Source: Escherichia phage vB_EcoP_SU10
Sequence record: NC_027395.1
Direction: 5' to 3' (one strand)
DNA length: 64,000 nt
The notes below the pieces were generated by a model, which worked only from the letters and a program-made list of their open reading frames with translations, was not told the DNA's origin and did not search any database. Numbering within the stretch: the stretch's first letter is position 1; the number at the start of each line of letters is the position of its first letter. This document shows, in pieces, positions 41,520-63,350 of this stretch. Position numbers and translations under genes: made by a program.

Positions 41520-41521
41520 TG

Positions 41522-41960: not shown

Positions 41961-41962
41961 AC

Positions 41963-43993
41963 TTAACCTCTATTCAATGAACATTTAGGGGAATTACAAT
42001 AAACTTGATTCATAGAACCAAGCGTACAACTTTCAGCATCGCGCCACGGAATCTGCTTAAAACACTCTGAGCAGTAGCCGAGGGTTGACCACATGGCTTT
42101 GGTGAAGTCAGTGCTTCGGTTTCCGTCGAAGCTGACAACAGTTTTGCGGAGAGTTGTTCGTGATTCAGGAAACACACCTGCTTTCTCAGCAGGTTCCTCC
42201 TTTTTTGGCTTAGTTGAGATTGCAAAAATACTGTTGCTACGTTTCTCAACATAAGCATCAACAACATCCTCCAGAGTGATGCCTGTCTGTTTCGCTGAGG
42301 AAGGTAATACAGTCATACGACCGATCATATCTTCAGTTACACGTAAAGCAAATTCAGGACGACGGGCGTTTGTTGTATCTGTTGCTTTAATCCAGATATA
42401 ACCATCTTTGATCGTAGCATTAGATACTTTCTTCTTTACTTCTACAGCGCAGACTTTACAGATATCTTCACCACGAAGACGACTGAGTTCCTCATCAAAC
42501 TCATTCTCTGTTTTAACTTCACCACAGATTTCACAAACACCAATAGGAGTCTCCTCCTCTTCTTCCTCTTTAGGTTTAGTCAAACCTTCCAGACATTCAG
42601 GATGCCAGTAGCACTGATATGCGAAGACTGCTTTAGGTGCATCCTTCCAATCAATGTGCTTATCACAACCACCACAATCGCCATGAGAGTGTGCTTCCCA
42701 GAATTTACGAGTGATAGTAACACCATTCTTGTTGACGAAACTATCATTCATATCAAAAGGGATATCATCATCAAAGTCAGCAGTAGTAGACTCAGGCTCC
42801 TTTTTCTCCAGAGATGGGTCAACAAAACGACCTGCTGTGATCACTAAGCGAACCATAGCATTAACTTCGGAGATGCAGGATACTGTCCCACGGTAAACAA
42901 TTTTAGGGTCTTTCAGGGCATCCTGATAAGCCTTAATGTCTACGTTATGAACATCACCTTCGATATACTCTTGAGACTTCTCATCGTAGATATAACCAAT
43001 CATCTTACCACGAGAAGGAACAGCACCAGCAGTTGCATAAGGAACAAACTCATGCGGAGTGATTTCCACAGTCATATCTCGGCGAATGTCAATGTTTCGA
43101 TCGCTTGCGATTTTGTTTTGACTTACCACTGCGTTTCTTCGACGAACGTCTGCCGCTGTCACTCCCGGCTTCGTGTCGTAAGGATTGCTTGTATTGCTTT
43201 TTGAGGAACTTTGATAGTTGCTTTGGCTGTAGTTGTTCGAGTAATAACTGCCCCAACGATTGGCTACCGTAAAAACCGGAAGCTCGTGGGCGACCTCTTC
43301 AACCAGAGTCATGCTGTTGTTTGACATATCAAAGATATATTCTGTACCAACTTTACATTCAAAATGCTCATCAATACGGTTCTTGTGAGATCTAGAACGC
43401 TTCAGAATCCACATCAACATGTCTTCTTCAGAAGCACCAAACCAATCTCTGTTACAACGTGCGAGGTGGAATGGACGCTCTTCGTTACGGATGATATGAA
43501 GACGGTTATCAGAAGCATCATGCCAGATTAAGGTGAAAGCACCATCCAGCTTTTGAATAGTCTCTGCTGCACCAATAGTGTTAATAGAGTGGCAGATGTT
43601 CTCACTGTCTACCTCGAAGTTTTTGCTGTCAGGTAACAGATCTTGGTCCATCAAGGTTCCATTATGAACCAGAGTGATGTTACCATGTTGGAAAGGATGG
43701 GCGTTCTTGGCGTTAACTGCACCTTTCGTTGCATGACGACTGTGACCAACAATCCATGAAGGTGCTACAGTGTAAGCTGTTTCACCAGTGGTGTGCTTCT
43801 TGTACTCATCTTGTAGGATGAATGCGAAAGAAGGAAGAGCTTCTTTATAAGTGAAGACTTCCTTAGTACTTTTACGCTGACCAAAGATACCGGAGGAATG
43901 TTGTCCTCGGAATACTCCAGCATAAAAGAGTTGGTTAAATACGTCTAAATCAGTGCTTGACAGATTACCGCCAGCTAATACGATGCCACAAAT
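41963..43993 (-). CDS. class II (Ntn) glutamine amidotransferase fused to a Cys-rich C-terminal domain; apparent non-canonical (ATT) start
   Basis: Hand translation upstream of track start gives (I)CGIVLAGGNL...FRGQHSSGIFG ... HATKGAVNAKNAHPFQHGNITLVHNGTL, like PurF/GlmS N-termini; C-terminus has several CxxC pairs. Confidence 0.7.
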   Translation of the reverse strand: MCGIVLAGGNLSSTDLDVFNQLFYAGVFRGQHSSGIFGQRKSTKEVFTYKEALPSFAFILQDEYKKHTTGETAYTVAPSWIVGHSRHATKGAVNAKNAHPFQHGNITLVHNGTLMDQDLLPDSKNFEVDSENICHSINTIGAAETIQKLDGAFTLIWHDASDNRLHIIRNEERPFHLARCNRDWFGASEEDMLMWILKRSRSHKNRIDEHFECKVGTEYIFDMSNNSMTLVEEVAHELPVFTVANRWGSYYSNNYSQSNYQSSSKSNTSNPYDTKPGVTAADVRRRNAVVSQNKIASDRNIDIRRDMTVEITPHEFVPYATAGAVPSRGKMIGYIYDEKSQEYIEGDVHNVDIKAYQDALKDPKIVYRGTVSCISEVNAMVRLVITAGRFVDPSLEKKEPESTTADFDDDIPFDMNDSFVNKNGVTITRKFWEAHSHGDCGGCDKHIDWKDAPKAVFAYQCYWHPECLEGLTKPKEEEEEETPIGVCEICGEVKTENEFDEELSRLRGEDICKVCAVEVKKKVSNATIKDGYIWIKATDTTNARRPEFALRVTEDMIGRMTVLPSSAKQTGITLEDVVDAYVEKRSNSIFAISTKPKKEEPAEKAGVFPESRTTLRKTVVSFDGNRSTDFTKAMWSTLGYCSECFKQIPWRDAESCTLGSMNQVYCNSPKCSLNRG

Positions 43994-44072
43994 TTTCTAA
44001 TCCACCTGAAGGGTAAACCCTTTCATCTAATTAACCTTTAAATTGTGCCCCTTTGTCAGAGGCACCCATTGA

Positions 44073-45176
44073 TTACAGCGCTTGCTCTAACTGATTTTCC
44101 AGATGGTCTGGAATGTACCCTGTGATATTGCTATCACTGTGACCAGACTCACGTAGTAAGTCAAAAATAGCACGAATACGTTGTTCTGGAGCGTGTCTTA
44201 CTTGAGATAGGTCTGCTGTACGAAGCATAACCAAAATCTCTTGATACAAGTTGTTAGCGTTCCCTCGAACATATCCAAGGAATCCATAGAAGTCTGACAT
44301 AAGACGTAAGTCAACAAGAACCTCTCCGTTGGAGTTGGTTCGACGTAAACGAATACGACCAGACTGTTCTACTTCATGAGAACGGCAATACAAAACATCA
44401 CGGGCCATACAATAACCTGAATGCAAATCAGATTCATCCAGATTGTAATCCAGAGGAAGGTAAGGAAGCATTGGGGCAAATCGTACAGTATTTAAATGCT
44501 CAATAAACTGATCATTGCTCATCTCTGCGTTATCTAAAGCCAGCTTCTTCAACATCAAGAAGCGGTTAACCAGATTGAGAAGTTGACCACGTTTCCACTT
44601 AGGCTCACTGATACGGAACTCAATTGAACCGTATTGGGCAAGTGGCAGAAGGTTCAGAGATGTATATTTATCCCATGAACGAACCAGACGGTTGAAGAAT
44701 TCTTCACCATCGTAGTTAAATGCGTCAGAGGCATTCATTACCTGTGCTTGTACCACTGCAAACGCAGGGCAGAAATTGCTACGGTAACGATGGTAGCCTG
44801 AACACTTGAACAGCATCTTTTCATAGAAGGTCCAAGCAAGGATGGTCTTCTTGAGGATATTACTATCAGCATCCCTCATATCCATATGAACGTGAGTAGA
44901 GCAACGCCAAGTCCCCTCGGCGTGCGATTCAGCTACTGCTTCACTCAGGTTGTTGATAGCGTCTAACAACTCCTGTCCGTTGTAAGGTCGTGAACATACC
45001 ATTTCACAACCATTACGCAGGGAACCATCCTCTGTGCAATCCCACATATCTGCTTCGATATGTTCAGAACCTTCGAGTTCAAGTTCAATACCGACACCGC
45101 ACTGAAGTGCAATTGAACTATGCGCCTCAGTTAAACGACCTTCTCGATATCCAAAAGTTTGCGCTACAGTTGTCAT
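44073..45176 (-). CDS. glutamine-synthetase-like amidoligase (carboxylate-amine ligase)
   Basis: GVGIELELEG near N-terminus and WRCSTHVHMD; resembles GCS2/amidoligase E-x-E and HVH motifs. Confidence 0.55.
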   Translation of the reverse strand: MTTVAQTFGYREGRLTEAHSSIALQCGVGIELELEGSEHIEADMWDCTEDGSLRNGCEMVCSRPYNGQELLDAINNLSEAVAESHAEGTWRCSTHVHMDMRDADSNILKKTILAWTFYEKMLFKCSGYHRYRSNFCPAFAVVQAQVMNASDAFNYDGEEFFNRLVRSWDKYTSLNLLPLAQYGSIEFRISEPKWKRGQLLNLVNRFLMLKKLALDNAEMSNDQFIEHLNTVRFAPMLPYLPLDYNLDESDLHSGYCMARDVLYCRSHEVEQSGRIRLRRTNSNGEVLVDLRLMSDFYGFLGYVRGNANNLYQEILVMLRTADLSQVRHAPEQRIRAIFDLLRESGHSDSNITGYIPDHLENQLEQAL

Positions 45177-45790
45177 AACGAATCCACCAACGTAATATTA
45201 TAATTGCTAAGGTTTTCAGAAATGTGATGAAAGTGTTCCAGAAGTCGCATCGGTTGCTGACCGTAAGAGTCACGAGGTGCTTCCAGATCTACTTGTCCTA
45301 CCAGTGCACCTTTATAATGCACTTTACCATCTGTAGGATTGATGTAAATATAACGAGTAACCAATCCATCAAATTCAGGATTGAACAGACTGTAAACCAT
45401 TTCACCAGAGATCGAACGACCAATCCCCGGAGCGTTTCGAATCTTGTTACCCATCAAACCCTTCGCTCTCTGACGAACAGGATTGATATGAGTCCAGCTT
45501 ACAGTGTTACCGTTATGGAACAGATAACCAACATCAGGCGATTCAAGAATCAAGGTTGGGTCGAACACTGGAATATTCATCGTAGTGTTTCGGAGATTCC
45601 CATGCTCGTTCTTGTACCACTGCTCTACAACAAAATACAGAGCCTGTTCTGCTTCATGCGAGAAGTCATCGCTGCGGAAGTTACCGCTCTGCTCAACACC
45701 AATCACAAAACACGGAAGGTTGATATTGCCTGCTCGTTTAGCAATCCATGTACCATTATAGTAATGAGAAAAATCAGCTACTAAGCTCAC
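45173..45790 (-). CDS. hypothetical protein in amidoligase operon
   Basis: 205 aa, overlaps neighbours by 4 nt. Confidence 0.5.
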   Translation of the reverse strand: MSLVADFSHYYNGTWIAKRAGNINLPCFVIGVEQSGNFRSDDFSHEAEQALYFVVEQWYKNEHGNLRNTTMNIPVFDPTLILESPDVGYLFHNGNTVSWTHINPVRQRAKGLMGNKIRNAPGIGRSISGEMVYSLFNPEFDGLVTRYIYINPTDGKVHYKGALVGQVDLEAPRDSYGQQPMRLLEHFHHISENLSNYNITLVDSL

Positions 45791-45799
45791 GATAACCTC

Positions 45800-46606
45800 T
45801 TATGCTACCTGAAGGAGTTTGATCTGCTGGTCAGCTTCTTTAACGTTGTTCCCGTTAATGATTTCATGAAGCTTCTCAATCGGAAGGCGAGAGTGCAATG
45901 CCATCAGAGTGGACATATCACACTGCTGAACAACCTTGTCAACCTGATCGTAAACAAACTTACGGTTTTCACGATCACTAATCCAGAAGTTAGACAGAGA
46001 ACGGTATTCAATACCATAGTCTTTATAACGGATTGCAGATGCTTTACCGTAGAGTTCTTTACGGCGAGTATCTTTGTCCATAATCACTGCTGGGAGAGAC
46101 AGGAAGTAGTCACACAGCACACCCAGCATCATCTGAGTTTGCAGAGTGATATCCAAAGCACCAACTACGCCAAGATGTACGTGACCACCGGCAGTACGAA
46201 GTCCCTTATTCTGAGAAGTCGGGGATGGGTTTTTCTGACCAGTGAAGGCGTTGAAATCAGGAGTGCACCCGAAGATGAACGCTGATTCATTAAAGGTCTT
46301 CATCTCTTCTTCAGTGAAGATGTGAGAGCTAACACCCGGAGCTGTTTCCATGTCCAGTTTGTTCAGGACATTATTGGTGAGATCGATACCACGTTGCATG
46401 TTATCGTTAAACGCTTCAAAACCGCTCTGTGGGTCAATATCAAACTCAGCCAGTACGTTGTCCTCTTGGAGACGAACATCCTTAGCCAGAGCGATCTTAT
46501 CGTCCTTAGAGCAGCCTAATAAACCGGCTACAGAAGTGATGATACCATTTCTAGTACGAACAAACATTTCAGGGTCAGAGCCGATAAGGAATTTGCGCTT
46601 AGTCAT
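45800..46606 (-). CDS. second amidoligase-like protein
   Basis: KFLIGSDPEMF N-terminal acidic motif and TAGGHVHLGVVG, same motif arrangement as 44073..45176. Confidence 0.45.
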   Translation of the reverse strand: MTKRKFLIGSDPEMFVRTRNGIITSVAGLLGCSKDDKIALAKDVRLQEDNVLAEFDIDPQSGFEAFNDNMQRGIDLTNNVLNKLDMETAPGVSSHIFTEEEMKTFNESAFIFGCTPDFNAFTGQKNPSPTSQNKGLRTAGGHVHLGVVGALDITLQTQMMLGVLCDYFLSLPAVIMDKDTRRKELYGKASAIRYKDYGIEYRSLSNFWISDRENRKFVYDQVDKVVQQCDMSTLMALHSRLPIEKLHEIINGNNVKEADQQIKLLQVA

Positions 46607-47570
46607 TGTAATACTCCACTAGTTCAGAAAAGAGAGATGAGATTGTGTTACCAACTTCTTCAAGAGTAAGACCGGAATCTGCTCCAGTTCTTTGAATCAG
46701 TCGGGCTGTAAAGTTTTGTACTGTAATGTTTCCCAACTTGTCGTCTATTGCTTCACGTTTGTGACCATAACAGTTGGACCAGAGTCTTAACCACTCTGAC
46801 ATTGTTTCATACTCGTCCGGGTCTTGATCTTTAGCACGAGCAAATCTTCGTAAGGCACCTTGGTTATGGTTACGAACATAACCATTCTCGTTGTCGCCAA
46901 CACCGAAGGGGTTTTGAACCCATACTTGCTTCGTGTATTCATCAGAGTCTACAACCAAAGGAAGGAATGCTGCTGCTGACATATTGTTGTTAATAACAAT
47001 AGAGGTGCTCTCACTACTCCCATTGGCTCTTCCTCGTTGAGACCATCCACCGAAGAAGTCACGACCCAACCCAGCTAACACTAGAGCGATTCCGATGCGT
47101 TTACGCTTCAGCCACTCTTCCCTGTCTTCAATTCCTTCTGCTAGGAAATCCATTCCACGATATTGCCCTTCCAGAATACTACGAAAGAGCATAAGTCCTG
47201 TGAAGATCTGATCTGCTGGATGCTCACGAAGGTTGACAGCAACACTATTCGCTGAAGTGATCGTAAATACGTCACGATAGCAAGACATGGAGTTCATAAT
47301 GTCTGCTGTTTCAACCAAGTTCTTTTCAATATCAGATGCAACATGACCATGAAAAGAGTGAGTCCAGTAATTCAACATCTCCAGTTGCAAGTTGATATCA
47401 CGGTTGAAGCGACGATAGCGCCCCTCTTCCGTGATAACTTCACCATTAATGTCATTTACACACTGGCCTTGCATGTAGTTGTGGATACCGAAGCACCCAC
47501 GACCTAAGAACTTCTGTTCCCCTAAATCCTGTTGAAGATTAAGAGGTACGATCGTTGTGGAGATTGACAT
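46599..47570 (-). CDS. hypothetical protein in amidoligase operon
   Basis: 323 aa. Confidence 0.5.
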   Translation of the reverse strand: MSISTTIVPLNLQQDLGEQKFLGRGCFGIHNYMQGQCVNDINGEVITEEGRYRRFNRDINLQLEMLNYWTHSFHGHVASDIEKNLVETADIMNSMSCYRDVFTITSANSVAVNLREHPADQIFTGLMLFRSILEGQYRGMDFLAEGIEDREEWLKRKRIGIALVLAGLGRDFFGGWSQRGRANGSSESTSIVINNNMSAAAFLPLVVDSDEYTKQVWVQNPFGVGDNENGYVRNHNQGALRRFARAKDQDPDEYETMSEWLRLWSNCYGHKREAIDDKLGNITVQNFTARLIQRTGADSGLTLEEVGNTISSLFSELVEYYND

Positions 47571-50452: not shown

Positions 50453-50713
50453 TCATTTGTTTTCCTGTGGAGTTAAGATAATTTCAGCTTTACTAAACTT
50501 CTCACCAACAACCATATCACCAGAGATGACACGCAGTTCTCCAGTGCCTAAGTTAACAGCTCCAGCAGGTTGACAGCCCCTGCTCTTAGCTGTAAGCATA
50601 TAAATCTTTTGATCCTTACATTCTTGGAGTGTGAATACGTCAGCCATGCTTAGGTCTTTAACATGGAGGATTATTTCCTCCTTGCTTTTAACTTTAATGT
50701 GAATAGTGCTCAT
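50453..50713 (-). CDS. small early protein, GDVF-motif paralog family
   Basis: LHVKDLSMADVFTL ... AVNLGTGEL. Confidence 0.45.
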   Translation of the reverse strand: MSTIHIKVKSKEEIILHVKDLSMADVFTLQECKDQKIYMLTAKSRGCQPAGAVNLGTGELRVISGDMVVGEKFSKAEIILTPQENK

Positions 50714-50715
50714 GA

Positions 50716-50961
50716 TTACTCCTGAACCACTGACATACGAATCACTTCAACTGGGGCATCACTTTTCATAACACCTAATACACCAGTAAGAAGATTAACT
50801 GTCGTAATCCAACCATCTTCTACAGAGATTTTGTTGGACACATTATTGACACGGATGTAATACTGAGGGGATGCCGTTCCTCTCTGAATTACGAAAGGGT
50901 TTCCGGGAATAATTGTAGCCAGTGAAACCGTGTTATCTTTAATCTTTGGGATGATCTTCAT
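50716..50961 (-). CDS. small early protein, GDVF-motif paralog family
   Basis: IIPGNPFVIQ ... TVNLLTG. Confidence 0.4.
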   Translation of the reverse strand: MKIIPKIKDNTVSLATIIPGNPFVIQRGTASPQYYIRVNNVSNKISVEDGWITTVNLLTGVLGVMKSDAPVEVIRMSVVQE

Positions 50962-51212
50962 TTAGAGTCCTTAATAACGTTAGCTTCAACCTTAACAGGA
51001 ATAACAGAGATACCCTCAACAGGACCACTCAAACTTCCATCTTCCAGCCTGACACACACGACTCGATCTCGTGCAACTTCCACCCAATTAGTAGATGCCG
51101 CAGTACAAACCATGTGGATTGGACCATTCTCTTCCAGTCGGAAGGTATCACCCTTCTTCAGAGTGTGGAGCTTTGCTGTCTTGATTGTTTTGTTCAACTC
51201 ATTGACTTTCAT
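50958..51212 (-). CDS. small early protein, GDVF-motif paralog family
   Basis: LHTLKKGDTFRLEENGPIHMVC. Confidence 0.45.
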   Translation of the reverse strand: MKVNELNKTIKTAKLHTLKKGDTFRLEENGPIHMVCTAASTNWVEVARDRVVCVRLEDGSLSGPVEGISVIPVKVEANVIKDSK

Positions 51213-51220
51213 ATTGATTC

Positions 51221-51532
51221 CTATTTAAGTTTGAGGCTAATATTAAGGTGCATACATGCCCTGTTCTGTACAGCAGCATAACTTCTACCAAGCATGTCAG
51301 CCATTCTCTGAATAGACATGAACCCAGCATTACGGATAAGGAACTGGTCTTCTTCTTTAGACCACTTAACTCGGATTGAAGCTCTTGATATTCCGAATTT
51401 AGTGCAAGCTGTGTTAACTGCATTCTCCGTTACATTCATAATCTGAGCAACTTCTTGAACCGAGTACTCTTTGATTAGTCTCCGAAGATTTTCAATCTGT
51501 ATAGGAGTCCATATAGTTCTTCGTGCTTTCAT
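51221..51532 (-). CDS. DNA-binding regulator with duplicated helix-turn-helix
   Basis: Internal repeat SVQEVAQIMNVTENAVNTA / SIQRMADMLGRSYAAVQNRA. Confidence 0.5.
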   Translation of the reverse strand: MKARRTIWTPIQIENLRRLIKEYSVQEVAQIMNVTENAVNTACTKFGISRASIRVKWSKEEDQFLIRNAGFMSIQRMADMLGRSYAAVQNRACMHLNISLKLK

Positions 51533-52027
51533 ACATCCTCCAGTTAATTGTTAAAATTATCAGGGGAGTACACTAGCTCTGGGCCACGCTGTAGATATCG
51601 GCCTACCTTCCACAGCTAATCAGCTAATGTACTCTCCTAATAGTTTATGAATAGGGGGAGGGGACGAATCCTCCCTTATCCTATTAATTAATATTGCATG
51701 TAAGATCTAACAATCGGTTGCCTTTGTAGGAATAGGTGTAAAGCCAATCCAGCACTAAACTCCCGCCCCCTTAGTGGGCTGGGTTATTAAAGGGTAACGC
51801 CCTTATGGGCTAGTTACATGAATGTTAGTTTGATAGGAGATCTGAAGTCCTATCTCAAAGGACTCTCGTAAGAATCCTTCACGATATTACTTATTCATTT
51901 TTCGTCGGCTATCTCTCCAAGCCAACCAAGTGTAGGTTTTCAACTCTTCTAAACTTTCTGGAGTGAATAGGTATTCTTTGAAGGTGTCACTAAACCACTC
52001 TAAAAATTCTTCAGTCATAATAACATC

Positions 52028-52273
52028 TCATTTCTTAGGTAGAATAATATCCCACAGCCATGCCCACAAAATAAGTGATATAAAAATCACAGCAATGATG
52101 GGCCATAGAAAAACTATAATTGCTATCTTTGATAAGTTTGGTTCGTTATCCCACCCTCTGAACTCGATACTGCCCTTTACATCAAGATATCTTACCAGAG
52201 CTGAAACTATCACAATACCTATCAGGTAAACAATCAAGACACTAACAGGACTGATCACAAGGTTGATCTCCAC
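52028..52273 (-). CDS. small membrane protein
   Basis: 81 aa, two long hydrophobic helices. Confidence 0.4.
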   Translation of the reverse strand: MEINLVISPVSVLIVYLIGIVIVSALVRYLDVKGSIEFRGWDNEPNLSKIAIIVFLWPIIAVIFISLILWAWLWDIILPKK

Positions 52274-52427
52274 ATGTTTTACAAATCACTGGTGAATAAC
52301 TACAGGCAGGATATACTGACACACCATCAAACGTTTCACACCCACAATCAGGGCACTCACCATTGGATTCCATGTCATCATCATCATCATACACTTCTCC
52401 ACCACCATAACAGCTCATATGAACTCC

Positions 52428-52649
52428 TTAGTAAACTAAACCTATAGCCTTTGCATCAGGCTGAGGGACTACTTTTGCACTAGGGCGATAGCCATCCACT
52501 GAGCCATTCCAAAGATTGACACAGGTGATATACCCATCGTTCAAGTAGTCTGTTTTAATCCAGAAGTGTTTATCATGACCAAAAATACTTCCGTTTGGCA
52601 GAGTGGACAGCTCAACGGTTTTAAGCGACTGCTTAGAGTCTAGTTTCAT
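52428..52649 (-). CDS. small early protein, GDVF-motif paralog family
   Basis: LSTLPNGSIFGHDKHFWIKTDYLNDGYITCVNLWNG. Confidence 0.45.
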   Translation of the reverse strand: MKLDSKQSLKTVELSTLPNGSIFGHDKHFWIKTDYLNDGYITCVNLWNGSVDGYRPSAKVVPQPDAKAIGLVY

Positions 52650-52656
52650 AATAACC

Positions 52657-52905
52657 TCAATTATCGTAGCATGTATTCCAATACATGTAGTTAACGTACG
52701 TTCTCGGTTTGATTCCGTACATGATGAAGTGAGTCTTCTTAATCCTTTCCTTCAGCGTGTAATAAAGGCCATCACTGAAGTTACCAATCTTTACTTGGAA
52801 GCGTAAGGAGCGAGCATCCATTCGAAGCATAGAGATTAGCTGTACCCTACTACCTCCAGCCATCTCTTCAAGAAGCTTCTTTGTATTCCAATAATGAGCT
52901 GTCAT
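52657..52905 (-). CDS. hypothetical protein
   Basis: 82-aa ORF. Confidence 0.3.
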   Translation of the reverse strand: MTAHYWNTKKLLEEMAGGSRVQLISMLRMDARSLRFQVKIGNFSDGLYYTLKERIKKTHFIMYGIKPRTYVNYMYWNTCYDN

Positions 52906-52906
52906 A

Positions 52907-53188
52907 TTACCACTCCTTACCGGTTGTTGTTACAGAACCACCACACCACTGCGCATCGGATAAGGTTTTAGTCTTCTCATCTACTGCTGCACCATTCAGG
53001 CATGAGATACCACTGTAACGCATATCAATTTCACCAGAAGGAACCTTCTCGCCCTTATGCCAGCGAGAAACACAAACACCTTCCACTGCTACTGCACACC
53101 ATCCATCAGGACGGCTCTGTACGCAGCCTGTAAGGGCCACACAGACAAGGAAGATACAGATTAAGGATATTACACCACCCCAACTCAT
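52907..53188 (-). CDS. Cys-rich lipoprotein candidate
   Basis: Hydrophobic leader ending in lipobox LTGC; n-region lacks basic residues. Confidence 0.4.
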   Translation of the reverse strand: MSWGGVISLICIFLVCVALTGCVQSRPDGWCAVAVEGVCVSRWHKGEKVPSGEIDMRYSGISCLNGAAVDEKTKTLSDAQWCGGSVTTTGKEW

Positions 53189-53328
53189 AACTACCTCCTA
53201 TTTGATTTGGTGGACTATCTGGAATCGAACCAGAAGCTCACTAAGAAAGTAATTCCCACTGTTATAAAAGCACTTGCCTCAACAGGGATACACTAACTCT
53301 GGTGCCGCACCCATACTAGCCCTAAATG

Positions 53329-53404
53329 TGGTGCGCCCTACAGGACTCGAACCTGTAACCAATAGCTTAGAAGGCTACTGCTCTATCCATTGAGCTAAGA
53401 GCGC
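53329..53404 (-). tRNA. tRNA-Arg (anticodon UCU)
   Basis: Hand-folded cloverleaf: acceptor GCGCTCT/AGGGCGC, D-arm GCTC-AATGGATA-GAGC, anticodon loop CTTCTAA, T-arm ACAGG-TTCGAGT-CCTGT, encoded CCA. Confidence 0.8.
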
Positions 53405-53411
53405 AGAAGAT

Positions 53412-53636
53412 TTAGATCATATCTCGTTTGGTGATATGACCACATGCTTTACATCGAAGTATATAACGAGTCCCTGTATCTTCTAGTTTACCGAACTCAT
53501 CATACACATTTAAACGAATCTCTTTTACAGTTTCCCATTCATGGAGATGGAAGAGATATTTAAACCACTTGAACATAATAACCTCAAGCACAAGCAGGGA
53601 GTGTGATGATTTTATACTGACCTTCAAACTCTCCAA
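53412..53636 (-). CDS. hypothetical protein
   Basis: 74-aa ORF; possible C-x2-C near C-terminus. Confidence 0.3.
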   Translation of the reverse strand: MESLKVSIKSSHSLLVLEVIMFKWFKYLFHLHEWETVKEIRLNVYDEFGKLEDTGTRYILRCKACGHITKRDMI

Positions 53637-53835
53637 ATAAACCTAAGAATGTAGGACTGTACGTACCAGTACAAACAAACTCATCAAACAATGCGTTATA
53701 GCTAGGCTTAATCTTCCAAGCCCATACATAACCCATCTTGTCAATTGCAATGTAACGAGTGTTCAGAGGAACAGTCATCATCACATCATCAACTTCAATC
53801 ACTTTAGTTATTGGTGCAGCTTGAAAGTTTTTCAT
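53584..53835 (-). CDS. hypothetical protein
   Basis: Start at MKNFQAAP. Confidence 0.3.
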   Translation of the reverse strand: MKNFQAAPITKVIEVDDVMMTVPLNTRYIAIDKMGYVWAWKIKPSYNALFDEFVCTGTYSPTFLGLFGEFEGQYKIITLPACA

Positions 53836-54056
53836 CCTACTCTCCTGACGTTTAGGGTAGCTTGATAAAATTTGACAGGACAACTTCTGTCAAACGTAAA
53901 TCTTGTTTCAGGGTTATTTATACAGATAGCATGTCTGTGCATAACCTTCATATATAAAGGAGGTTTTGTATCCCCATCTATCTCTAGAGAGAACACATCA
54001 CCATTACGGAGGCTGCCAAAAGTGTTATCTTTAGGCTCAGAGCGAACGATAATCAT
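53832..54056 (-). CDS. small early protein, GDVF-motif paralog family
   Basis: FGSLRNGDVFSLEIDG ... YMKV ... ICINN. Confidence 0.45.
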   Translation of the reverse strand: MIIVRSEPKDNTFGSLRNGDVFSLEIDGDTKPPLYMKVMHRHAICINNPETRFTFDRSCPVKFYQATLNVRRVG

Positions 54057-54273
54057 ACTTTACCTTTGATAAAAATATCATTACCACAGACACAGCATGA
54101 ACGAACAACAGTAGCGCCACGCTGAACGATACGAACCTCTTCTTTAACCAGATTGACACGAGCACCACAACAAGGAGAGTTAACATAAGAGTAACCAGCT
54201 TGTGTATTCTTGATTGTTTGCTTAGACATTTGAGCTTCCTCTTGTTAGTTTAAGTAAGAGCTGACCCTTAATT

Positions 54274-54302
54274 AAAACAACAAAGGCCGCCCGAAGGCAG
54301 CC
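54274..54302 (-). terminator. intrinsic terminator (strand-specific, UUCG loop)
   Basis: - strand GGCTGCC-TTCG-GGCGGCC then TTTGTTGTTTT. Confidence 0.55.
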
Positions 54303-54307
54303 TCTCT

Positions 54308-54559
54308 TTATTGACTAACACCACGAATCAGATGATTCTGTAGCATTTCATCTTCTGCATTATACAGGAATGCAAACATCAACTCCTTAGCCACATCTCT
54401 TGAGCAATTAAGACACTTAGAGATTTGCGTTAGTTGCATGTTGCGTTCTGTGTGTTCCATCAAGGCAATGCGAATGATCTCTCGCATACCTATCACATGG
54501 GTTGTCTTAACCGGCATAGGTCCAATTGCCTTGTTTGTTACGGATGGCTGACATTGCAT
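54308..54559 (-). CDS. hypothetical protein
   Basis: 83-aa ORF. Confidence 0.35.
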   Translation of the reverse strand: MQCQPSVTNKAIGPMPVKTTHVIGMREIIRIALMEHTERNMQLTQISKCLNCSRDVAKELMFAFLYNAEDEMLQNHLIRGVSQ

Positions 54560-55005
54560 GAATCCAGAAGCCTTCCAGTTTCAGAGCACCATTAGCTACT
54601 GCATCCATACGTTCAGGGCGGTTCATACGTTTGGTTGATACTTTCATACCTATCTCTCTTTGTTAGTGGAGGCATTATTGCCAGTTGATATAAGGGATAG
54701 CCCTAGTCAGTAGGCTAATCCTGACCGCGTACTCATTGCCGACCTTCTCTGCCTAAGAGTTCAGGTTCTAGAGCTATCTCTTATTCCAACTGGTGAAGAC
54801 TCCCTACCCCTAGGAAGTCTCCTGAATCCCAAACCAATATGTACCCCTACATATTAGAAAGTCTTTCGAAAATTAACAGGTTTTAGTCTAGCACCGGATG
54901 TTCGAGCAAGCTCTCCCTAGCGGTGTGGCATATGCCTGAATTAATAAGTTAATGAGGAACACCCTCACATAGCCCTCTGATAAACACAAGGGCTATAAGT
55001 CGGTG

Positions 55006-55224
55006 TTACTTTTGGGATAAACACAGATCAGGACGTGGCATAACAGTGGTTGATAAACCGAAGACTTCAACAGAACCACTGTTCAGATCGGCGGCCTTAC
55101 ACAAACCGTCAGGAGTTTTATCTTCTAACATCAGCCAGAAACGTCTATCGTAAGAGAAAACATCACCACTTTTAACATCTTCTGCATTTGCATATTTAGG
55201 ATAATCAACTACTTTAATTTCCAT
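55006..55224 (-). CDS. small early protein, GDVF-motif paralog family
   Basis: VKSGDVFSYDRRFWLMLEDKTPDGLCKAADLNSG. Confidence 0.45.
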   Translation of the reverse strand: MEIKVVDYPKYANAEDVKSGDVFSYDRRFWLMLEDKTPDGLCKAADLNSGSVEVFGLSTTVMPRPDLCLSQK

Positions 55225-55482
55225 TCACTTACCCTTGTTGGTAATAACAACATCGTGAAGAAGAACAACCTTGCTTTTCGAGCTAAGCTTAAGGACTTGC
55301 TTATTTGTTAGACTAAGGACGACACAACCACCATCGGAAGGCTTGGTCTCTTCAATCTGTGGGGTAAATAGCTGAACAACCATGTAGAAATCTGCTCGTG
55401 TTTCCCTGATTTGGAATACATCTCCAAGTTTGAGATCACCAACACACAAAGACGGTTCATTTACTTCAAGATTAATCTTCAT
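55225..55482 (-). CDS. small early protein, GDVF-motif paralog family
   Basis: LKLGDVFQIRETRADFYMVV. Confidence 0.45.
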   Translation of the reverse strand: MKINLEVNEPSLCVGDLKLGDVFQIRETRADFYMVVQLFTPQIEETKPSDGGCVVLSLTNKQVLKLSSKSKVVLLHDVVITNKGK

Positions 55483-55708
55483 CTTTAGCCTCTATATTGG
55501 TTATGTGGAGATCACTGCGTACTTGGCAGACTTCATCCCGTTTAAAAGGCATGAGCTTTCCAGTTACCACATCAACACAGTTGACATAATTGTCTGCGTA
55601 CAATGTGTCGGTTCTAATGTAAAGAGAATCTTTACGCTCAAATAGAATCCCCGGCTTCATGTTATTCAAGCGGAGCATCGTACGATCGGATTTAATATTA
55701 ACTTTCAC
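55472..55708 (-). CDS. small early protein, GDVF-motif paralog family
   Basis: MKPGILFERKDSLYIRTD ... CVDVVTG. Confidence 0.45.
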   Translation of the reverse strand: MKVNIKSDRTMLRLNNMKPGILFERKDSLYIRTDTLYADNYVNCVDVVTGKLMPFKRDEVCQVRSDLHITNIEAKDED

Positions 55709-55710
55709 TG

Positions 55711-55935
55711 TTAATCCACCTTATTAGTAAGTCGGGCATTGCTGATCTTCTTGATGACCGTATTACTCTCATCCGTTGCTATAACGCCACAGGAAAGGTT
55801 GATATAGCTCCTCTTGTCTGTTGTCCCAAACTTCTGACTGGATAACATATAATAATTCTCTCCATCTAGAGGGAACTGGAACACATCACCTGATTCTAAA
55901 TCCCCAAGAGTTAAAACCTTTGGGGAGTTGTTCAT
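55711..55935 (-). CDS. small early protein, GDVF-motif paralog family
   Basis: Start at MNNSPKV; LESGDVFQFPLDGENYYML. Confidence 0.45.
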   Translation of the reverse strand: MNNSPKVLTLGDLESGDVFQFPLDGENYYMLSSQKFGTTDKRSYINLSCGVIATDESNTVIKKISNARLTNKVD

Positions 55936-55936
55936 A

Positions 55937-56233
55937 TCAATTATCACTGTTAATCTCCTGCTGCTTAGCAATAGCCACTCGCAAGTCTTCATTAGCACGA
56001 GCAAGGCGCAACACTTCATGATTGAGGTTCTGAAGACGTTTGTTTCTGTCTTCAACTTGCATAATAAGATCGTTGAGTGTTACTTTAACTTTCTCATTAT
56101 ACATCTCATCCACTCGGACTAGAGATTTATACATTCTTTCCCAGCTTGCTGCTTTGTTTCTTAGGACAATAAATCCTAGAACGCTGATAGTTAAACAGCT
56201 TACAAAAAGGAATTTATATATTTCTAAAGTCAT
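55937..56233 (-). CDS. membrane-anchored coiled-coil protein
   Basis: N-terminal TM FLFVSCLTISVLGFIVL then heptad-like helix. Confidence 0.4.
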   Translation of the reverse strand: MTLEIYKFLFVSCLTISVLGFIVLRNKAASWERMYKSLVRVDEMYNEKVKVTLNDLIMQVEDRNKRLQNLNHEVLRLARANEDLRVAIAKQQEINSDN

Positions 56234-56432
56234 ATTATTTACCCTTTATCAGAGATTAAAAGTAATATTATTTAAGTAAGTTATGTTTAGTAAACTTATT
56301 TTCTAAGAAATTTTCAAAGGGTCTATATACAGAGCATTACCCATAGTTCCAGAATACTACCATCTTTTTCAATAAATTTACTAAGTGATTGGTTTATAAA
56401 GGAATTTAGTTTGTCAAATCTGGCACTAGTGA

Positions 56433-60155: not shown

Positions 60156-60184
60156 ATTATGAATCATGTTGTTTTCGCTGTCAA
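60156..60184 (-). promoter_or_regulatory. sigma70-type early promoter
   Basis: - strand TTGACA, 17-nt spacer, CATAAT, with upstream A tract. Confidence 0.55.
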
Positions 60185-60313
60185 CCACTTTTTAATCTTT
60201 TTTCGTCGTTCCCGCTATTGGGAGGATATATCAATCAGCTTTATTTGATTGAAGACTAAGCGGTGATGCTTATCTTATGATTCATATTGTTAAAGAGCGG
60301 TTACTACATTTAC

Positions 60314-60341
60314 AGCTTAACACATCGTGTTAGCTTGTCAA
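60314..60341 (-). promoter_or_regulatory. sigma70-type promoter candidate (weak -10)
   Basis: - strand TTGACA, 16 nt, TAAGCT. Confidence 0.3.
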
Positions 60342-60639
60342 CTCTTTTTATCATCTTCTTTTAATTCCTTTCCCTTATCTCGCGTGAATCTATGCGAAAG
60401 GGCAAGATGATAAGTCTGATTTGTCTTTTAGGAATCTAGTGCGCTTTCAAGCATTGACCATTTGAAAGTATCGAACAAATGAGGCTTATTTTGTTGCTCA
60501 TCGTCCGCCTGTTCACGTATGAATCAGGAATCAATTCTAGTGGTCAACTAAGCGCCTTATAGTAATGACGTTCCCGCCACCTGTAAGACAAATCATATTT
60601 TTAAAGAGCTGGATGTTTCACGTCATCGCTGACTATGCT

Positions 60640-60668
60640 CACTATATATCAGGCTGTTTTCGGTGTCA
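60640..60668 (-). promoter_or_regulatory. sigma70-type early promoter
   Basis: - strand TTGACA, 17-nt spacer, TATAGT, upstream AAAAAGAG. Confidence 0.6.
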
Positions 60669-61074
60669 ATACTCTTTTTAAGAATATTTTCACTTTCTAG
60701 CCTGATTTTTAAAGAGCGTAGCACTTTCATTGTGCGTCTTACCGTCGGTATTCCTACCGCTCCCCGTTGAAGCCTTTTACCGTGATGCTAATCACCTATC
60801 GAGGAGTTTTTACTACTTGTTGTTACTTACTGCTTACTACGGGATTCATATTACTATACAGGAAAACCCTGTCAATACCCTTTTTTCAAATTATTTTATA
60901 TCTCACTGTTTTATAAAGGAATTTATTTTAGAGATGACAGGAACTACAAAGAAATCAGAAGAGAGAGGAACGGGAGCGCGTGATACATCATAGGAAACAG
61001 CCTGTAAAGCAATAATAAGCGGCCTATAACGCATCACAACGAGCTAAAAGGGAGTAAGGTATACAATCACCTTA

Positions 61075-61102
61075 GAAAAGAAAAAAGCCTCATAGTGAGG
61101 CT
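61075..61102 (-). terminator. intrinsic terminator
   Basis: AGCCTCA-CTA-TGAGGCT then TTTTTTCTTTT on - strand. Confidence 0.55.
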
Positions 61103-61179
61103 TATAGGAAGGATTTAAAGCATTAGATACATTATGACCATAGGCATGACTACGGCACAATACAGGAGAAAGATTAAGC

Positions 61180-61545
61180 CTATGGATTTACACATTGCCC
61201 TAAACCGGATGCTATTTCGTTCATAGATTCATCAAAGAGTGTTAACGATGAGCGCATCAAGTGATCGATCGTGATTTGTTTACCAGTGGTTTCATTCACC
61301 AACAGAATAGTTTTATCATATGATTGTACATGATCGAAATCGTTTACATGTAAAATAATAACTTTAGGTGACTTTTTACCAGTTTCATAGTCTTCTATAA
61401 GATAGGTACACTGTAAGCCGTCAATCGTAGCAGGGGAAAACGTTGCAGCCTTTACGCTACCCATAGATGACAACAGGACACCTAACAGAAGAACGACCAG
61501 AAAGAAGCCTACGAACACTTTTACCACAAATTTGATAATACCCAT
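61180..61545 (-). CDS. secreted/membrane protein
   Basis: N-terminal hydrophobic leader FVGFFLVVLLLGVLL. Confidence 0.4.
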   Translation of the reverse strand: MGIIKFVVKVFVGFFLVVLLLGVLLSSMGSVKAATFSPATIDGLQCTYLIEDYETGKKSPKVIILHVNDFDHVQSYDKTILLVNETTGKQITIDHLMRSSLTLFDESMNEIASGLGQCVNP

Positions 61546-61641
61546 GAAAATAACACCTATAGTCAGAGAATGTAAGAATAAAGCATATCAGCGACGAATA
61601 ACGCCACTGTAACAACGAACAAGCAACGCCAGAAATAATCA

Positions 61642-61920
61642 TTAATCATCATTGCTATCCTCGCCAAAGAATGCTACGCTAATTTGTTCCACTTCTTCCA
61701 GTGACAGAAGAATCCCACGCTGGGCTAAATACTTCCCAACAGTTAGATAATCTTGCACTAAGCAGACAATAGGAAAGCGTATATTTTGTATCTCACCTTT
61801 GGAAAGAAAAGACAAATAGCCAACGTCGATTGATTCATCAAAGGATAGTGTAACGCCACCGTAATTATGCGTATCAATTAACGCAATAGTTTCATTTCCC
61901 ATAACGTTTCCAATCCTCAT
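61642..61920 (-). CDS. hypothetical early protein
   Basis: 92-aa ORF. Confidence 0.35.
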   Translation of the reverse strand: MRIGNVMGNETIALIDTHNYGGVTLSFDESIDVGYLSFLSKGEIQNIRFPIVCLVQDYLTVGKYLAQRGILLSLEEVEQISVAFFGEDSNDD

Positions 61921-62122
61921 AATGATTAACTAGTGCCTGATAATCGTCAGATGATAACTCACCGCCTAAATAGGCAACGGTTATGCGTGCTTTGTATTCT
62001 GACAAACTGCATAGCGCGGAAGCGGATAACCTGCTTTCGCCATAACATCCTAGCACTTCAACGATACAACCGTTTAAAGATACTGATTTATTAATCACGA
62101 TATGGTTAGCCATTAATATCAT
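61892..62122 (-). CDS. hypothetical early protein
   Basis: 76-aa ORF. Confidence 0.3.
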   Translation of the reverse strand: MILMANHIVINKSVSLNGCIVEVLGCYGESRLSASALCSLSEYKARITVAYLGGELSSDDYQALVNHYEDWKRYGK

Positions 62123-62369
62123 CCTTAATTAGCCCATGATTGAGCAGGTTAGCCAGTGATAAGCCACCGTCAAAATAAACAGAACGAAAATCAGCGCGGG
62201 TAATTTCAAGGCCAGCAAACTTCAACCAGTTTTTGGCTGATTGAAAATCCATTTTGCAAAAAGTAATGATAGGAACAGTAAGCTGACCATCGAGCGTATT
62301 AAACATGATAGCGGTATCGCCAATAAAACAAGAAAAGCCACTAGATAATCTAATTTCTTTAATAGCCAT
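62106..62369 (-). CDS. hypothetical early protein
   Basis: 87-aa ORF. Confidence 0.35.
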   Translation of the reverse strand: MAIKEIRLSSGFSCFIGDTAIMFNTLDGQLTVPIITFCKMDFQSAKNWLKFAGLEITRADFRSVYFDGGLSLANLLNHGLIKDDING

Positions 62370-62405
62370 TATTTATACTCCCAAAAGATTGGCAAATTAA
62401 TTTAT

Positions 62406-63278
62406 TCACTTACTAGCCTTAATACAGTTGGCTAAATTAACGTGAACGGTATAAACAGCATTATCCGCGTTATTGTAAACAGTCGTGGCGATCATCGACT
62501 CATTGATCGGGCCATAGCTAACAAGGTTAGTAACGGCTTTAACGTCTTCATAACGTTGTACAGTGCCGAAAGTCACCATATCCGCATCGTTATCAGTACG
62601 CTTAAGCACTAAATCACTGTTAGGCTGATTATCTAACGTTTTAGATTGAAAGAGAACGCCATCATTAGTAACGTTGCTAAATTTCATCTTTAGCACGATA
62701 TTATTGCCGTCACTATCCGCACCGTTGCAAATCATCCAACCCTTATTGATGGAACTAGCGAAAACATCAGCGGCATCAGTTGCAGGAGTAGGACTAGCGA
62801 TAGCCTTATCAGAAAGAGATGTGACCAGTGCACTAACACCAATAGCTGCAACCAGTGCATAACTTGCCAGATTAACAGACTTCATAATCTTACTTGCAAC
62901 AGTAGGCTTGATTGGCTGTTTCTTGTTTTTCTTATTCCATGCTTCAACCATGACAGACAAGCGGGATAATTCAGCTTTCACATCGCGGCATGACTCAGGC
63001 CAATCCTTCTGATTCCAGCTATCTAAATTTGCTTGAATGTAGCAATTAATAGCGTCCTGCATATCGGTAAAACCGTTCTCTTTGAACGTGCTTTCATCTT
63101 CACACTGTAAAGCGTTCGCAGTAGAGTTAATGATCAAGCAAGCCAGCATTACAGAGTTTTTGAATCCTTTACGTGCACTTTCGTTTTCCATCCACGCATC
63201 AGGACTACCAACGGTTAAGCCTAAAGAGGAAAGGCTTTCGTTTGCTTTGTTCAAGTGGTTAATTGCTACTTTAGACAT
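62406..63278 (-). CDS. early membrane protein
   Basis: 290 aa, central TM helix; sigma70-like promoter ~50 nt upstream. Confidence 0.45.
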   Translation of the reverse strand: MSKVAINHLNKANESLSSLGLTVGSPDAWMENESARKGFKNSVMLACLIINSTANALQCEDESTFKENGFTDMQDAINCYIQANLDSWNQKDWPESCRDVKAELSRLSVMVEAWNKKNKKQPIKPTVASKIMKSVNLASYALVAAIGVSALVTSLSDKAIASPTPATDAADVFASSINKGWMICNGADSDGNNIVLKMKFSNVTNDGVLFQSKTLDNQPNSDLVLKRTDNDADMVTFGTVQRYEDVKAVTNLVSYGPINESMIATTVYNNADNAVYTVHVNLANCIKASK

Positions 63279-63322
63279 TTGATATTCCTTCTGGTTGATG
63301 AAAACTACAAACTACACTCGCA

Positions 63323-63350
63323 ACTATATATTAAAGGAAAAGGCTGTCAA
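63323..63350 (-). promoter_or_regulatory. sigma70-type early promoter
   Basis: - strand TTGACA, 16 nt, TATAGT. Confidence 0.5.

What the first reader, a model, noticed from the sequence alone, without database searches (positions are those of the whole stretch)
50453..56055. Nine-member family of small paralogous early proteins
Nine ORFs of 70-86 aa share a hydrophobic-Gly-Asp-Val-Phe core about 20 residues in, followed by Tyr/Trp and a C-x-[VI]-[ND]-L-x-x-G segment (for example GDVFSYDRRFWL...CKAADLNSG). Sequences are otherwise divergent, suggesting repeated duplication and diversification. That pattern is typical of host-takeover or anti-defence inhibitor arrays.
Basis: seen in the sequence. 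Interest (0 to 1): 0.55.

Follow-up and report, generated by a model that had tools for sequence, protein, structure and literature searches.

The report
Nine related small early phage proteins
A phiEco32-like E. coli phage carries nine diverged copies of one small, uncharacterised barrel-shaped protein in its early region; the family is real and occurs in many other phages, but what the proteins bind is still unknown.

Summary
The window is a Kuravirus (phiEco32/SU10-like) genome. Nine minus-strand genes of 72-86 aa between 50453 and 55947 form one protein family. Each is found by a profile of the other eight (E 3e-3 to 3e-9), always ahead of all other ORFs in the window, and no tenth copy exists in the 64 kb. 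AlphaFold models of two members give a five-stranded SH3-like/Tudor/KOW-type barrel.

The family has no Pfam, NCBIfam or PDB relative and is split over eight "unknown function" PHROGs. It is not confined to Kuravirus. A profile search found 809 clusters, and N4 gp21, LUZ24 gp7 and PaP3 ORF65 are single-copy members. Kuraviruses carry 7-11 copies, with 21 types across nine sampled genomes. Orthologues are under purifying selection (dN/dS 0.03-0.34).

The genes lie in the early region, downstream of sigma-70-like promoters. Function is inferred only. Most likely they are non-enzymatic binding modules aimed at different host or defence proteins. LUZ24 gp7 was not toxic to its host, which argues against a host-killing role. 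This is a new member of a known kind, of moderate interest.

The parts
50453..50713 (-). m1, 86 aa family member (phi32_95 orthologue; PHROG 12612)
   Evidence: Leave-one-out E 3.9e-5. AGGAG lies 10 nt upstream of the ATG. Present in 7/7 Kuravirus genomes sampled. dN/dS about 0.2.
50716..50961 (-). m2, 81 aa family member (phi32_96 orthologue; PHROG 7431)
   Evidence: Leave-one-out E 1.3e-6. Present in 7/7 Kuravirus genomes. Two allelic forms, 67-69% versus 86-100% identity.
50958..51212 (-). m3, 84 aa family member (PHROG 7832); overlaps the start of m2 by 4 nt
   Evidence: Leave-one-out E 1.8e-5. This type is in 4 of 7 Kuravirus genomes; phiEco32 holds a 28%-identical variant at the same slot.
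52428..52649 (-). m4, 73 aa family member (phi32_104 orthologue; PHROG 6570)
   Evidence: Leave-one-out E 2.8e-9. Pairwise E 7e-8 with m6. Present in 7/7 Kuravirus genomes.
53832..54056 (-). m5, 74 aa, the most divergent member (phi32_109 orthologue; PHROG 10911)
   Evidence: Leave-one-out E 3.3e-3, still ahead of the best decoy at 0.12. Broad profile E 1.1e-11. AlphaFold pLDDT 77.9 with the same strand order as m6. Its BFVD structural hits overlap those of m6.
55225..55482 (-). m7, 85 aa family member (phi32_114 orthologue; PHROG 9955)
   Evidence: Leave-one-out E 3.9e-8. GAGG lies 10 nt upstream of the start. Two allelic forms, 57-59% versus 92-94% identity.
55472..55708 (-). m8, 78 aa family member, GTG start (phi32_115 orthologue; PHROG 16423); overlaps the start of m7 by 11 nt
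   Evidence: Leave-one-out E 2.7e-7. Shares a 25-nt start-region repeat with m9.
55711..55947 (-). m9, 78 aa family member; probable GTG start at 55947 (alternative ATG at 55935). The 114-aa TTG ORF reaching 56055 is not the likely gene.
   Evidence: Leave-one-out E 2.9e-7. GGAG 7 nt upstream of the GTG. Identical to the 78-aa SU10_0114 protein, P0267. This type is found in only 2 of 7 Kuravirus genomes.
56267..56294 (-). Weak sigma-70-like promoter match upstream of the 55937-56233 gene and the m9-m6 block
   Evidence: TTTACT-16-AATAAT, 9 of 12 matches. Consensus match only, not evidence of function.
60156..63350 (-). Cluster of near-consensus sigma-70-like promoters that most likely drive leftward early transcription through the array
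   Evidence: Sites starting at 63350, 60669 and 60184 match 11 of 12; sites at 62395 and 60875 match 10 of 12. On the minus strand, exact gp36-type TAATGTATA boxes occur only at 22907 and 29699. The literature places Kuravirus early genes at the far right of the genome (PMC9965538; PMC8948821).

Best explanation
The nine genes encode independently translated, soluble, single-domain proteins of about 8-10 kDa with an SH3-like five-stranded beta-barrel fold. They belong to an unnamed phage superfamily that also includes N4 gp21, LUZ24 gp7 and PaP3 ORF65. This superfamily has expanded in Gordonclarkvirinae to 7-11 copies per Kuravirus genome. The conserved residues (N-terminal M-K-I, L..L..G-D-V-F, Y/W-M-K, C/A-V-N-L-x-T-G, F, V, A-x-L) build the barrel core and two tight turns. 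The N-terminal arm and the loops are hypervariable. The proteins have no catalytic or metal-binding signature. Shown: family membership, predicted fold, purifying selection and early-region location. Inferred: they are made from host-RNA-polymerase early promoters in the first minutes of infection and act stoichiometrically as binding modules. On this reading each paralogue type uses its own variable surface to bind a different host or host-defence protein (or possibly a phage partner), modulating it rather than killing the cell.
Confidence: 0.5

Rival explanations
1. The proteins are small nucleic-acid-binding barrels (KOW, Tudor, Sso7d or L2-like). On this reading they act on phage or host RNA or DNA, for example as transcription or translation modulators or RNA chaperones.
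For: The best structural neighbours are ribosomal protein L2 C-terminal domain, EF-P/eIF5A domain I and Spt5/NusG KOW domains. A probably homologous repeat (hhalign probability 91.8%, E 7e-7) occurs five times in a chromosomal Bacteroidota SprT-like metalloprotease, with strongly basic loops. From general knowledge, that enzyme family includes DNA-dependent proteases.
Against: The phage members are neutral to acidic: pI 4.7-9.2, net charge at most +2.7, and a median of -2.9 in 130 relatives. There is no conserved basic patch, and the loop that is basic in the SprT repeats is variable and often acidic here. The KOW sequence motif is absent.
Confidence: 0.15
2. The proteins serve the phage itself. 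They would be small adaptors or cofactors of phage replication, transcription (gp36/gp79/RNA polymerase) or the amidoligase modification cluster, rather than acting against the host.
For: Types m1, m2, m4 and m6 are in all seven sampled Kuraviruses, and m5, m6 and m8 orthologues have dN/dS as low as 0.03-0.08. LUZ24 gp7 is non-toxic. LUZ24/PaP3 and Kuravirus share both this family and the amidoligase / COOH-NH2 ligase cluster.
Against: Copy number and type composition vary freely between close relatives: m9 is in 2 of 7 genomes, m3 in 4 of 7, and extra types occur elsewhere. N4 carries a member in the 22 kb scanned, and no amidoligase-cluster gene is annotated there. The known small transcription factor gp79 is unrelated.
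Confidence: 0.2
3. The resemblance is chance or compositional, or the ORFs are not real genes.
For: Pairwise identities are only 15-30% and many pairs are individually non-significant. Exact GDVF is present in only four of nine.
Against: Leave-one-out profiles separate all nine from 394 decoy ORFs. A profile of relatives under 50% identical to the sampled copies also finds exactly these nine. Two models share a fold and share structural neighbours. Orthologues evolve under purifying selection, and all nine have ribosome-binding sites.
Confidence: 0.02

Closest known systems
PHROG families 6570, 7832, 8365, 9955, 16423, 7431, 10911 and 12612 (all 'unknown function')
   Same: Each of the nine proteins is a full-length member of one of these families (E 1e-26 to 1e-49), and weaker cross-hits link several of the families to each other.
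   Different: PHROGs keeps them as separate unannotated families. The common origin, the fold and the expansion in Kuravirus are not recorded there.
N4 gp21, LUZ24 gp7 and PaP3 ORF65 (uncharacterised small proteins of Schitoviridae and Bruynoghevirus phages)
   Same: All are hit by the family profile (E 3.9e-17, 3.6e-11 and 1.1e-8). They have the same length and motifs and sit among small non-structural genes. N4 gp21 and PaP3 ORF65 are also structural hits of the m6 model.
   Different: They are single copy in the regions scanned, versus 7-11 copies in Kuravirus. Only LUZ24 gp7 has any experimental data, and it showed no growth inhibition (PMC4635203).
SH3-like small beta-barrels: Tudor, KOW, EF-P/eIF5A domain I, ribosomal L2 C-terminal domain, CarD/UvrD RNA-polymerase-interacting domains, FeoA/DtxR C-terminal domain
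phiEco32 gp79, the known small RNA-polymerase-binding regulator of this phage group
   Same: Small protein of the same phage group that reprogrammes the host; its homologue lies in the window at 40062-40310.
   Different: It is unrelated in sequence. Family profiles do not hit the gp79 chains in the PDB. gp79 is single copy.
Multi-copy or clustered small early 'ORFan' genes of virulent phages, such as the LUZ24 early proteins including Mip (gp4), which binds MvaT
   Same: Short early genes downstream of sigma-70 promoters, dense packing and translational coupling. Where studied, such proteins act as stoichiometric binders of host proteins (PMC4635203).
   Different: Those examples are mostly unrelated singletons. 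Here a single fold family supplies nine of the early genes. No target is known.

Membership tests
Kuravirus/N4/LUZ24 small SH3-like early-protein superfamily (unnamed; spans eight PHROGs) | Significant match to a family profile built without the sequence itself | tested here: met
   Leave-one-out E 3e-3 to 3e-9 for all nine. A profile of 124 relatives under 50% identical to the sampled Kuravirus copies gives E 1e-17 to 2.3e-8.
Kuravirus/N4/LUZ24 small SH3-like early-protein superfamily (unnamed; spans eight PHROGs) | Single domain of about 66-97 aa with the G-[DE]-[VTI]-F turn near residue 20, a Y/W-[MIL] strand, and a [CAV]-[VI]-[ND]-L-x-x-G hairpin | tested here: met
   Alignments. F is invariant, the first G is in 8 of 9 and the second G in 7 of 9; m5 and m7 lack the second glycine.
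Kuravirus/N4/LUZ24 small SH3-like early-protein superfamily (unnamed; spans eight PHROGs) | Common predicted fold | tested here: met
   Two members were modelled (m6 pLDDT 87.7, m5 77.9) with the same strand order and overlapping BFVD neighbours. The other seven were not modelled.
SH3-like barrel fold class (Tudor/KOW/EF-P domain I/L2 C-terminal) | Five-stranded, strongly bent antiparallel barrel | tested here: met
KOW domain family | KOW sequence motif and a Pfam KOW match | tested here: not met
   No Pfam hit for any of the nine or for 139 relatives.
Tudor domain family | Aromatic cage that binds methylated Lys/Arg | not tested
   No Pfam Tudor hit. The conserved aromatics (F23, Y/W30, F55) alternate with hydrophobic residues as core positions would.
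phiEco32 gp79-type RNA-polymerase regulators | Sequence similarity to gp79 (PDB 9m7y chain G) | tested here: not met
   Family profiles do not retrieve gp79 at E up to 10. The true gp79 homologue is at 40062-40310 (E 1e-51).
Characterised anti-defence or host-shutoff inhibitors | Homology to a protein with a demonstrated target | tested here: not met
   All PHROG hits are 'unknown function'. All BFVD hits are uncharacterised. No clear member in the 149 kb of T4 scanned (best is Ndd.1, E 0.022). LUZ24 Mip (gp4) and the other toxic LUZ24 ORFans are not members. No dedicated anti-defence library was available.
Characterised anti-defence or host-shutoff inhibitors | Physical binding to and inhibition of a host or defence protein | not testable with these tools
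   Needs pull-downs, complex prediction or genetics.
SprT-associated repeat domain (Bacteroidota SprT-like proteins) | Profile-profile similarity between the phage family and the five repeats of P0128 | tested here: met
   hhalign probability 91.8%, E 7.3e-7 over 51 columns. Individual repeats reach only E 2e-4 to 0.1 against the profile, so homology is probable, not certain.

The most novel reading that the evidence does not exclude
The SH3-like family is a modular inhibitor scaffold. Each paralogue type would neutralise a different E. coli immunity or host factor. The 21 or more interchangeable types in Gordonclarkvirinae would then form the hidden anti-defence repertoire behind the reported near-complete resistance of these phages to restriction and other tested defence systems. 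The single copies in N4-like and LUZ24-like phages would be the ancestral state.
Probability: 0.2. Interest if true: 0.75.

Novelty: new member of a known kind. Interest (0 to 1): 0.42.

Why it matters
Roughly one in five genes of the Kuravirus early region, by a rough count of ORFs, belongs to one uncharacterised fold family. That family is also present in model phages such as N4 and LUZ24, and it has no Pfam entry, no solved structure and no known function. Recognising eight separate 'unknown' PHROGs as one SH3-like superfamily with a lineage-specific expansion gives a compact, testable set of candidates. There are nine genes here and about 21 types in the subfamily. They can be screened for host or defence targets in therapeutically used E. 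coli phages that are unusually resistant to bacterial immunity. If targets are found, the family would be a new small inhibitor scaffold. If not, it remains an example of paralogue expansion in phage early regions.

Tried and rejected
1. Pfam, NCBIfam and PDB sequence searches gave nothing meaningful, whether run with single proteins, the nine-member profile or a 139-member profile.
2. The idea that the family is related to gp79 was rejected; gp79 is at 40062-40310 and is unrelated.
3. A tenth copy in the window was sought. The best candidate, 39880-40065, reaches only E 0.03-0.3 and was not accepted.
4. Three T4 chunks covering 149 kb were scanned for a characterised member, skipping the late genes at 99-119 kb. 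There was no clear hit; Ndd.1 scored E 0.022.
5. PaP3 gp70.1 and the toxic LUZ24 proteins gp4, gp6, gp9 and gp11 were checked as possible members. None is; only ORF65 and gp7 are.
6. The CRISPRi-ART fitness data for PTXU04 do not apply, because PTXU04 does not appear to be a Kuravirus: the paper never uses the term and describes 92 CDS including a 2,198-aa polyvalent protein.
7. The search for related loci with the broad alignment failed because no stretch was conserved enough. tblastn with the family consensus was too insensitive and returned 15 records. A second word-indexed search added only Kuravirus proteins. The AFDB Foldseek library was unavailable.
8. My first split into 'Kuravirus' and 'non-Kuravirus' relatives by 50% identity was flawed. 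Two of the nearest 'outside' relatives (P0199, P0123) sit on 71-77 kb Gordonclarkvirinae-like contigs. I therefore claim only that paralogues have closer relatives in other genomes than in their own.
9. Savalia 2008 and Pavlova 2012, the original phiEco32 genome and transcription papers, are not held. I could not check whether they had already noted the paralogy.
Full report
**Identity of the window.**
The 5.7-kb region matches 143 phage records. The best are Escherichia phage CHD5UKE1 (95.6% identity) and Bas91 (97.0% identity). phiEco32 matches at 90.5%. The window is therefore a Kuravirus (Gordonclarkvirinae) genome. By offset to CHD5UKE1 it lacks only about 13 kb of late genes and the last few hundred bases, so the whole early region is present.

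**The observation.**
The minus strand carries nine small ORFs:
- m1: 50453-50713
- m2: 50716-50961
- m3: 50958-51212
- m4: 52428-52649
- m5: 53832-54056
- m6: 55006-55224
- m7: 55225-55482
- m8: 55472-55708
- m9: 55711 onward

Their alignment shows one invariant Phe and the pattern L..L..G-D-V-F ... Y-M ... V-N-L-x-x-G ... V. Pairwise, only some pairs are significant: m4-m6 at 7e-8, m4-m8 at 1e-4, and m5-m9 and m7-m9 at 7e-4.

Profile tests are decisive:
- A profile of any eight finds the ninth at E 3.3e-3 (m5) to 2.8e-9 (m4). The ninth always ranks ahead of every one of the other 385 ORFs of 40 aa or more, whose best scores are E 0.015-1.
- A profile built from 124 database relatives under 50% identical to the sampled Kuravirus copies finds exactly these nine (E 1e-17 to 2.3e-8), with the next ORF at 0.2. 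These relatives were originally collected with the nine-member profile, so this test is not fully independent.
- No tenth member exists in the 64 kb.

**Gene models.**
All nine have a Shine-Dalgarno-like motif 9-14 nt upstream of the start. m9 should start at GTG 55947:
- GGAG lies 7 nt upstream.
- The resulting N-terminus, M-I-I-D, fits the family consensus.
- The 78-aa product is identical to SU10_0114.

The genes are tightly packed. m2/m3 overlap by 4 nt and m7/m8 by 11 nt; m6/m7 abut; m1/m2 and m8/m9 are 2 nt apart. This suggests translational coupling within two tandem blocks, m1-m3 and m6-m9.

**Evidence that these are real, maintained genes.**
Orthologues in phiEco32, CHD5UKE1, MN03, SR02 and O18-011 give dN/dS of 0.03-0.34 wherever dS is not saturated. 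This indicates purifying selection. Several slots hold two deeply diverged alleles:

| Slot | Divergent allele | Close allele |
|---|---|---|
| m2 | 67-69% identity | 86-100% |
| m7 | 57-59% | 92-94% |
| m8 | 64-65% | 94-97% |
| m3 | 28% | 93-100% |

**Fold.**
AlphaFold2 with a 45-sequence alignment gives m6 a confident model: pLDDT 87.7, pTM 0.74, and five strands at residues 22-25, 28-34, 41-46, 52-56 and 60-63. The weakest member, m5, gives pLDDT 77.9 with the same strand order.

Foldseek against viral models returns only uncharacterised phage proteins. Among them are other Kuravirus paralogues, N4 gp21 and PaP3 ORF65, and the hit lists of m6 and m5 overlap.

Across 139 family members the informative columns are:
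- M1, K2, I3
- L/F14, L17
- G20, D21, V22, F23
- Y/W30, M/I31, K32
- C/A44, V45, N46, L47, T/N49, G50
- F55, V61, A67, L69

This is a core-and-turn pattern. Residues 4-13, 24-28, 34-43 and 51-60 are nearly random. The same segments vary inside orthologue groups.

**No known family.**
- Pfam: no hit for the nine, for ten relatives or for all 139.
- NCBIfam: none.
- PDB by sequence: none.
- PHROGs: the nine fall into families 12612, 7431, 7832, 6570 (twice), 10911, 9955 (twice) and 16423, all labelled 'unknown function'. Weaker cross-hits, including to PHROG 8365, already hint at the relationship.

The known small regulator gp79 of this phage group (PMC12276001) lies at 40062-40310 (E 1e-51 to PDB 9m7y chain G) and is unrelated.

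**Distribution and copy number.**
The nine-member profile hits 809 clusters at 50% identity (E up to 1e-3) in a 1.84-billion-protein library. Most of the best 150 are 66-97 aa single-domain proteins. Thirteen are two-domain tandem fusions, and two are obvious repeat-protein false positives.

One hit is a chromosomal Bacteroidota SprT-like metalloprotease with five basic repeats. Its repeat profile matches the family at hhalign probability 91.8%.

Scans with the family profile gave these counts:

| Genome | Members found |
|---|---|
| This window | 9 |
| phiEco32 | 9 |
| CHD5UKE1 | 9 |
| MN03 | 11 |
| SR02 | 8 |
| O18-011 | 7 |
| 71-kb Kuravirus-like contig | 9 |
| SU7 (Suseptimavirus) | 4 |
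| SU7-like contig | 5 |
| N4, first 22 kb | 1 (gp21, E 3.9e-17) |
| PaP3, whole genome | 1 (ORF65, E 1.1e-8) |
| LUZ24, first 9 kb | 1 clear (gp7, E 3.6e-11) plus a weak unannotated ORF |
| Vibrio phage 1.101.O, 23.7 kb | 2 |
| T4, 149 kb | none clear |

The 71 Gordonclarkvirinae copies fall into 21 types at 45% identity or more:
- m1, m2, m4 and m6 are in all seven Kuravirus-type genomes.
- m5, m7 and m8 are in six.
- m3 is in four.
- m9 is in two.

Paralogues share no DNA similarity except 25 nt at the starts of m8 and m9. The closest relatives of individual paralogues lie in other genomes. The array is thus an old, lineage-specific expansion with ongoing gain, loss and allele replacement. 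It is not a recent duplication burst.

**Expression class.**
Near-consensus sigma-70-like promoters lie on the minus strand at 63350, 60669, 60184, 62395 and 60875. Terminator-like hairpins lie at 58311, 56897 and 54305. On the minus strand, exact matches to the gp36 middle/late promoter box TAATGTATA occur only at 22907 and 29699.

Published work on phiEco32 places the early class at the far right of the genome. It describes those genes as hypothetical and probably involved in host takeover (PMC8948821; PMC9965538). Early expression of these particular nine genes is therefore inferred from position, not measured here.

**Function.**
Nothing here shows function directly, and the neighbouring early genes give no clue. 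They are PHROG 'unknown' except a D5-like helix-turn-helix regulator and a phage lipoprotein.

The proteins are small, lack conserved polar clusters or Cys/His patterns, and are neutral to acidic. They combine a rigid conserved core with variable loops. This is the anatomy of a binding module, and the charge argues for protein rather than nucleic-acid partners.

The only experimental datum is for LUZ24 gp7. It was one of 13 early ORFans expressed in P. aeruginosa PAO1, and it was not among the four that impaired growth. None of the 13 affected E. coli (PMC4635203). That argues against a host-killing shut-off role. It is compatible with anti-defence, a subtle host modulation, or a phage-directed role.

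The BASEL study reports that Gordonclarkvirinae resist restriction-modification and all other tested defences except Fun/Z, without known inhibitors. This is compatible with the anti-defence idea but is not evidence for it.

My estimates are:

| Reading | Probability |
|---|---|
| Paralogue-specific binders of host or defence proteins | about 0.5 |
| Phage-internal adaptors | about 0.2 |
| Nucleic-acid binders | about 0.15 |
| Artefact | about 0.02 |

**Verdict.**
This is a new member of a known kind, namely an uncharacterised, widespread SH3-like phage protein superfamily with a marked expansion in Kuravirus. I found no paper in the searchable library that describes the paralogy. The original phiEco32 genome paper could not be read.

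Noticed in passing
window 40062-40310 (-): 82-aa homologue of phiEco32 gp79, the RNA-polymerase-binding factor that displaces sigma-70 and stabilises the phage sigma factor gp36. E 1e-51 to PDB 9m7y chain G. It also gives weak hits to TAL-effector repeats.
   Followed up: partly
window 53329-53404 (-): tRNA-Arg (anticodon TCT) embedded in the early region between family members m4 and m5. It is conserved in related phages and accounts for most of the distant blastn hits of this region to unrelated phages.
   Followed up: partly
window about 39196-47000 (-); L017 (PaP3) 31903-38613; L018 (LUZ24) 7377-9000: A cluster of ATP-grasp-like, GGCT/AIG2-like, glutamine amidotransferase, amidoligase and COOH-NH2 ligase genes lies just downstream of the early region. 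The same kind of cluster lies next to the early genes of the Pseudomonas phages PaP3 and LUZ24, which also carry a member of the SH3-like family.
   Followed up: no
window 55692-55716 and 55931-55955: A 25-nt direct repeat (84% identity) covers the ribosome-binding site, GTG start and first codons of m8 and m9. It is the only DNA-level similarity between any two paralogues and may be a recombination junction for swapping cassettes. In O18-011 the m9 type sits directly next to m6, and m7 and m8 are missing.
   Followed up: partly
window 52242-52418, 53412-53636, 54053-54229 (all -): Three small Cys-rich early proteins with paired CxxC-like motifs, which look like zinc ribbons. They are interspersed with the family members, and all fall in 'unknown function' PHROGs.
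   Followed up: no
window 51221-51532 (-): 103-aa 'D5-like' regulator with two helix-turn-helix units (Pfam Sigma70_r4_2 E 1.6e-7; PHROG 323). It sits immediately upstream of the m3-m1 block.
   Followed up: no
window 12300 (+), 22907 (-), 22979 (+), 29699 (-): Exact matches to the published gp36 middle/late promoter box TAATGTATA. They include a divergent pair 72 nt apart at 22907/22979, which probably marks the switch between leftward middle and rightward late transcription.
   Followed up: no
L010 3583-5019 / L011 6001-7437 (protein P0128): A chromosomal Bacteroidota SprT-like metalloprotease carries five tandem, strongly basic repeats that are probably homologous to the phage family (hhalign probability 91.8%). 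It is the only fusion to an enzymatic domain seen among the best 150 hits.
   Followed up: partly
L018 (LUZ24) 5100-5330 (+) and gp8 3058-3333: An unannotated ORF between LUZ24 gp13 and gp14 scores E 5e-4 against the family profile, and gp8 scores 0.07. LUZ24 may therefore have two or three members rather than one. gp8 was reported to increase biofilm formation.
   Followed up: no
T4 NC_000866 166101-166316 (ndd.1): T4 Ndd.1 is the best T4 match to the family profile (E 0.022 among 1589 ORFs) and has a G-E-I-F motif. This is borderline and was not accepted as a member.
   Followed up: no
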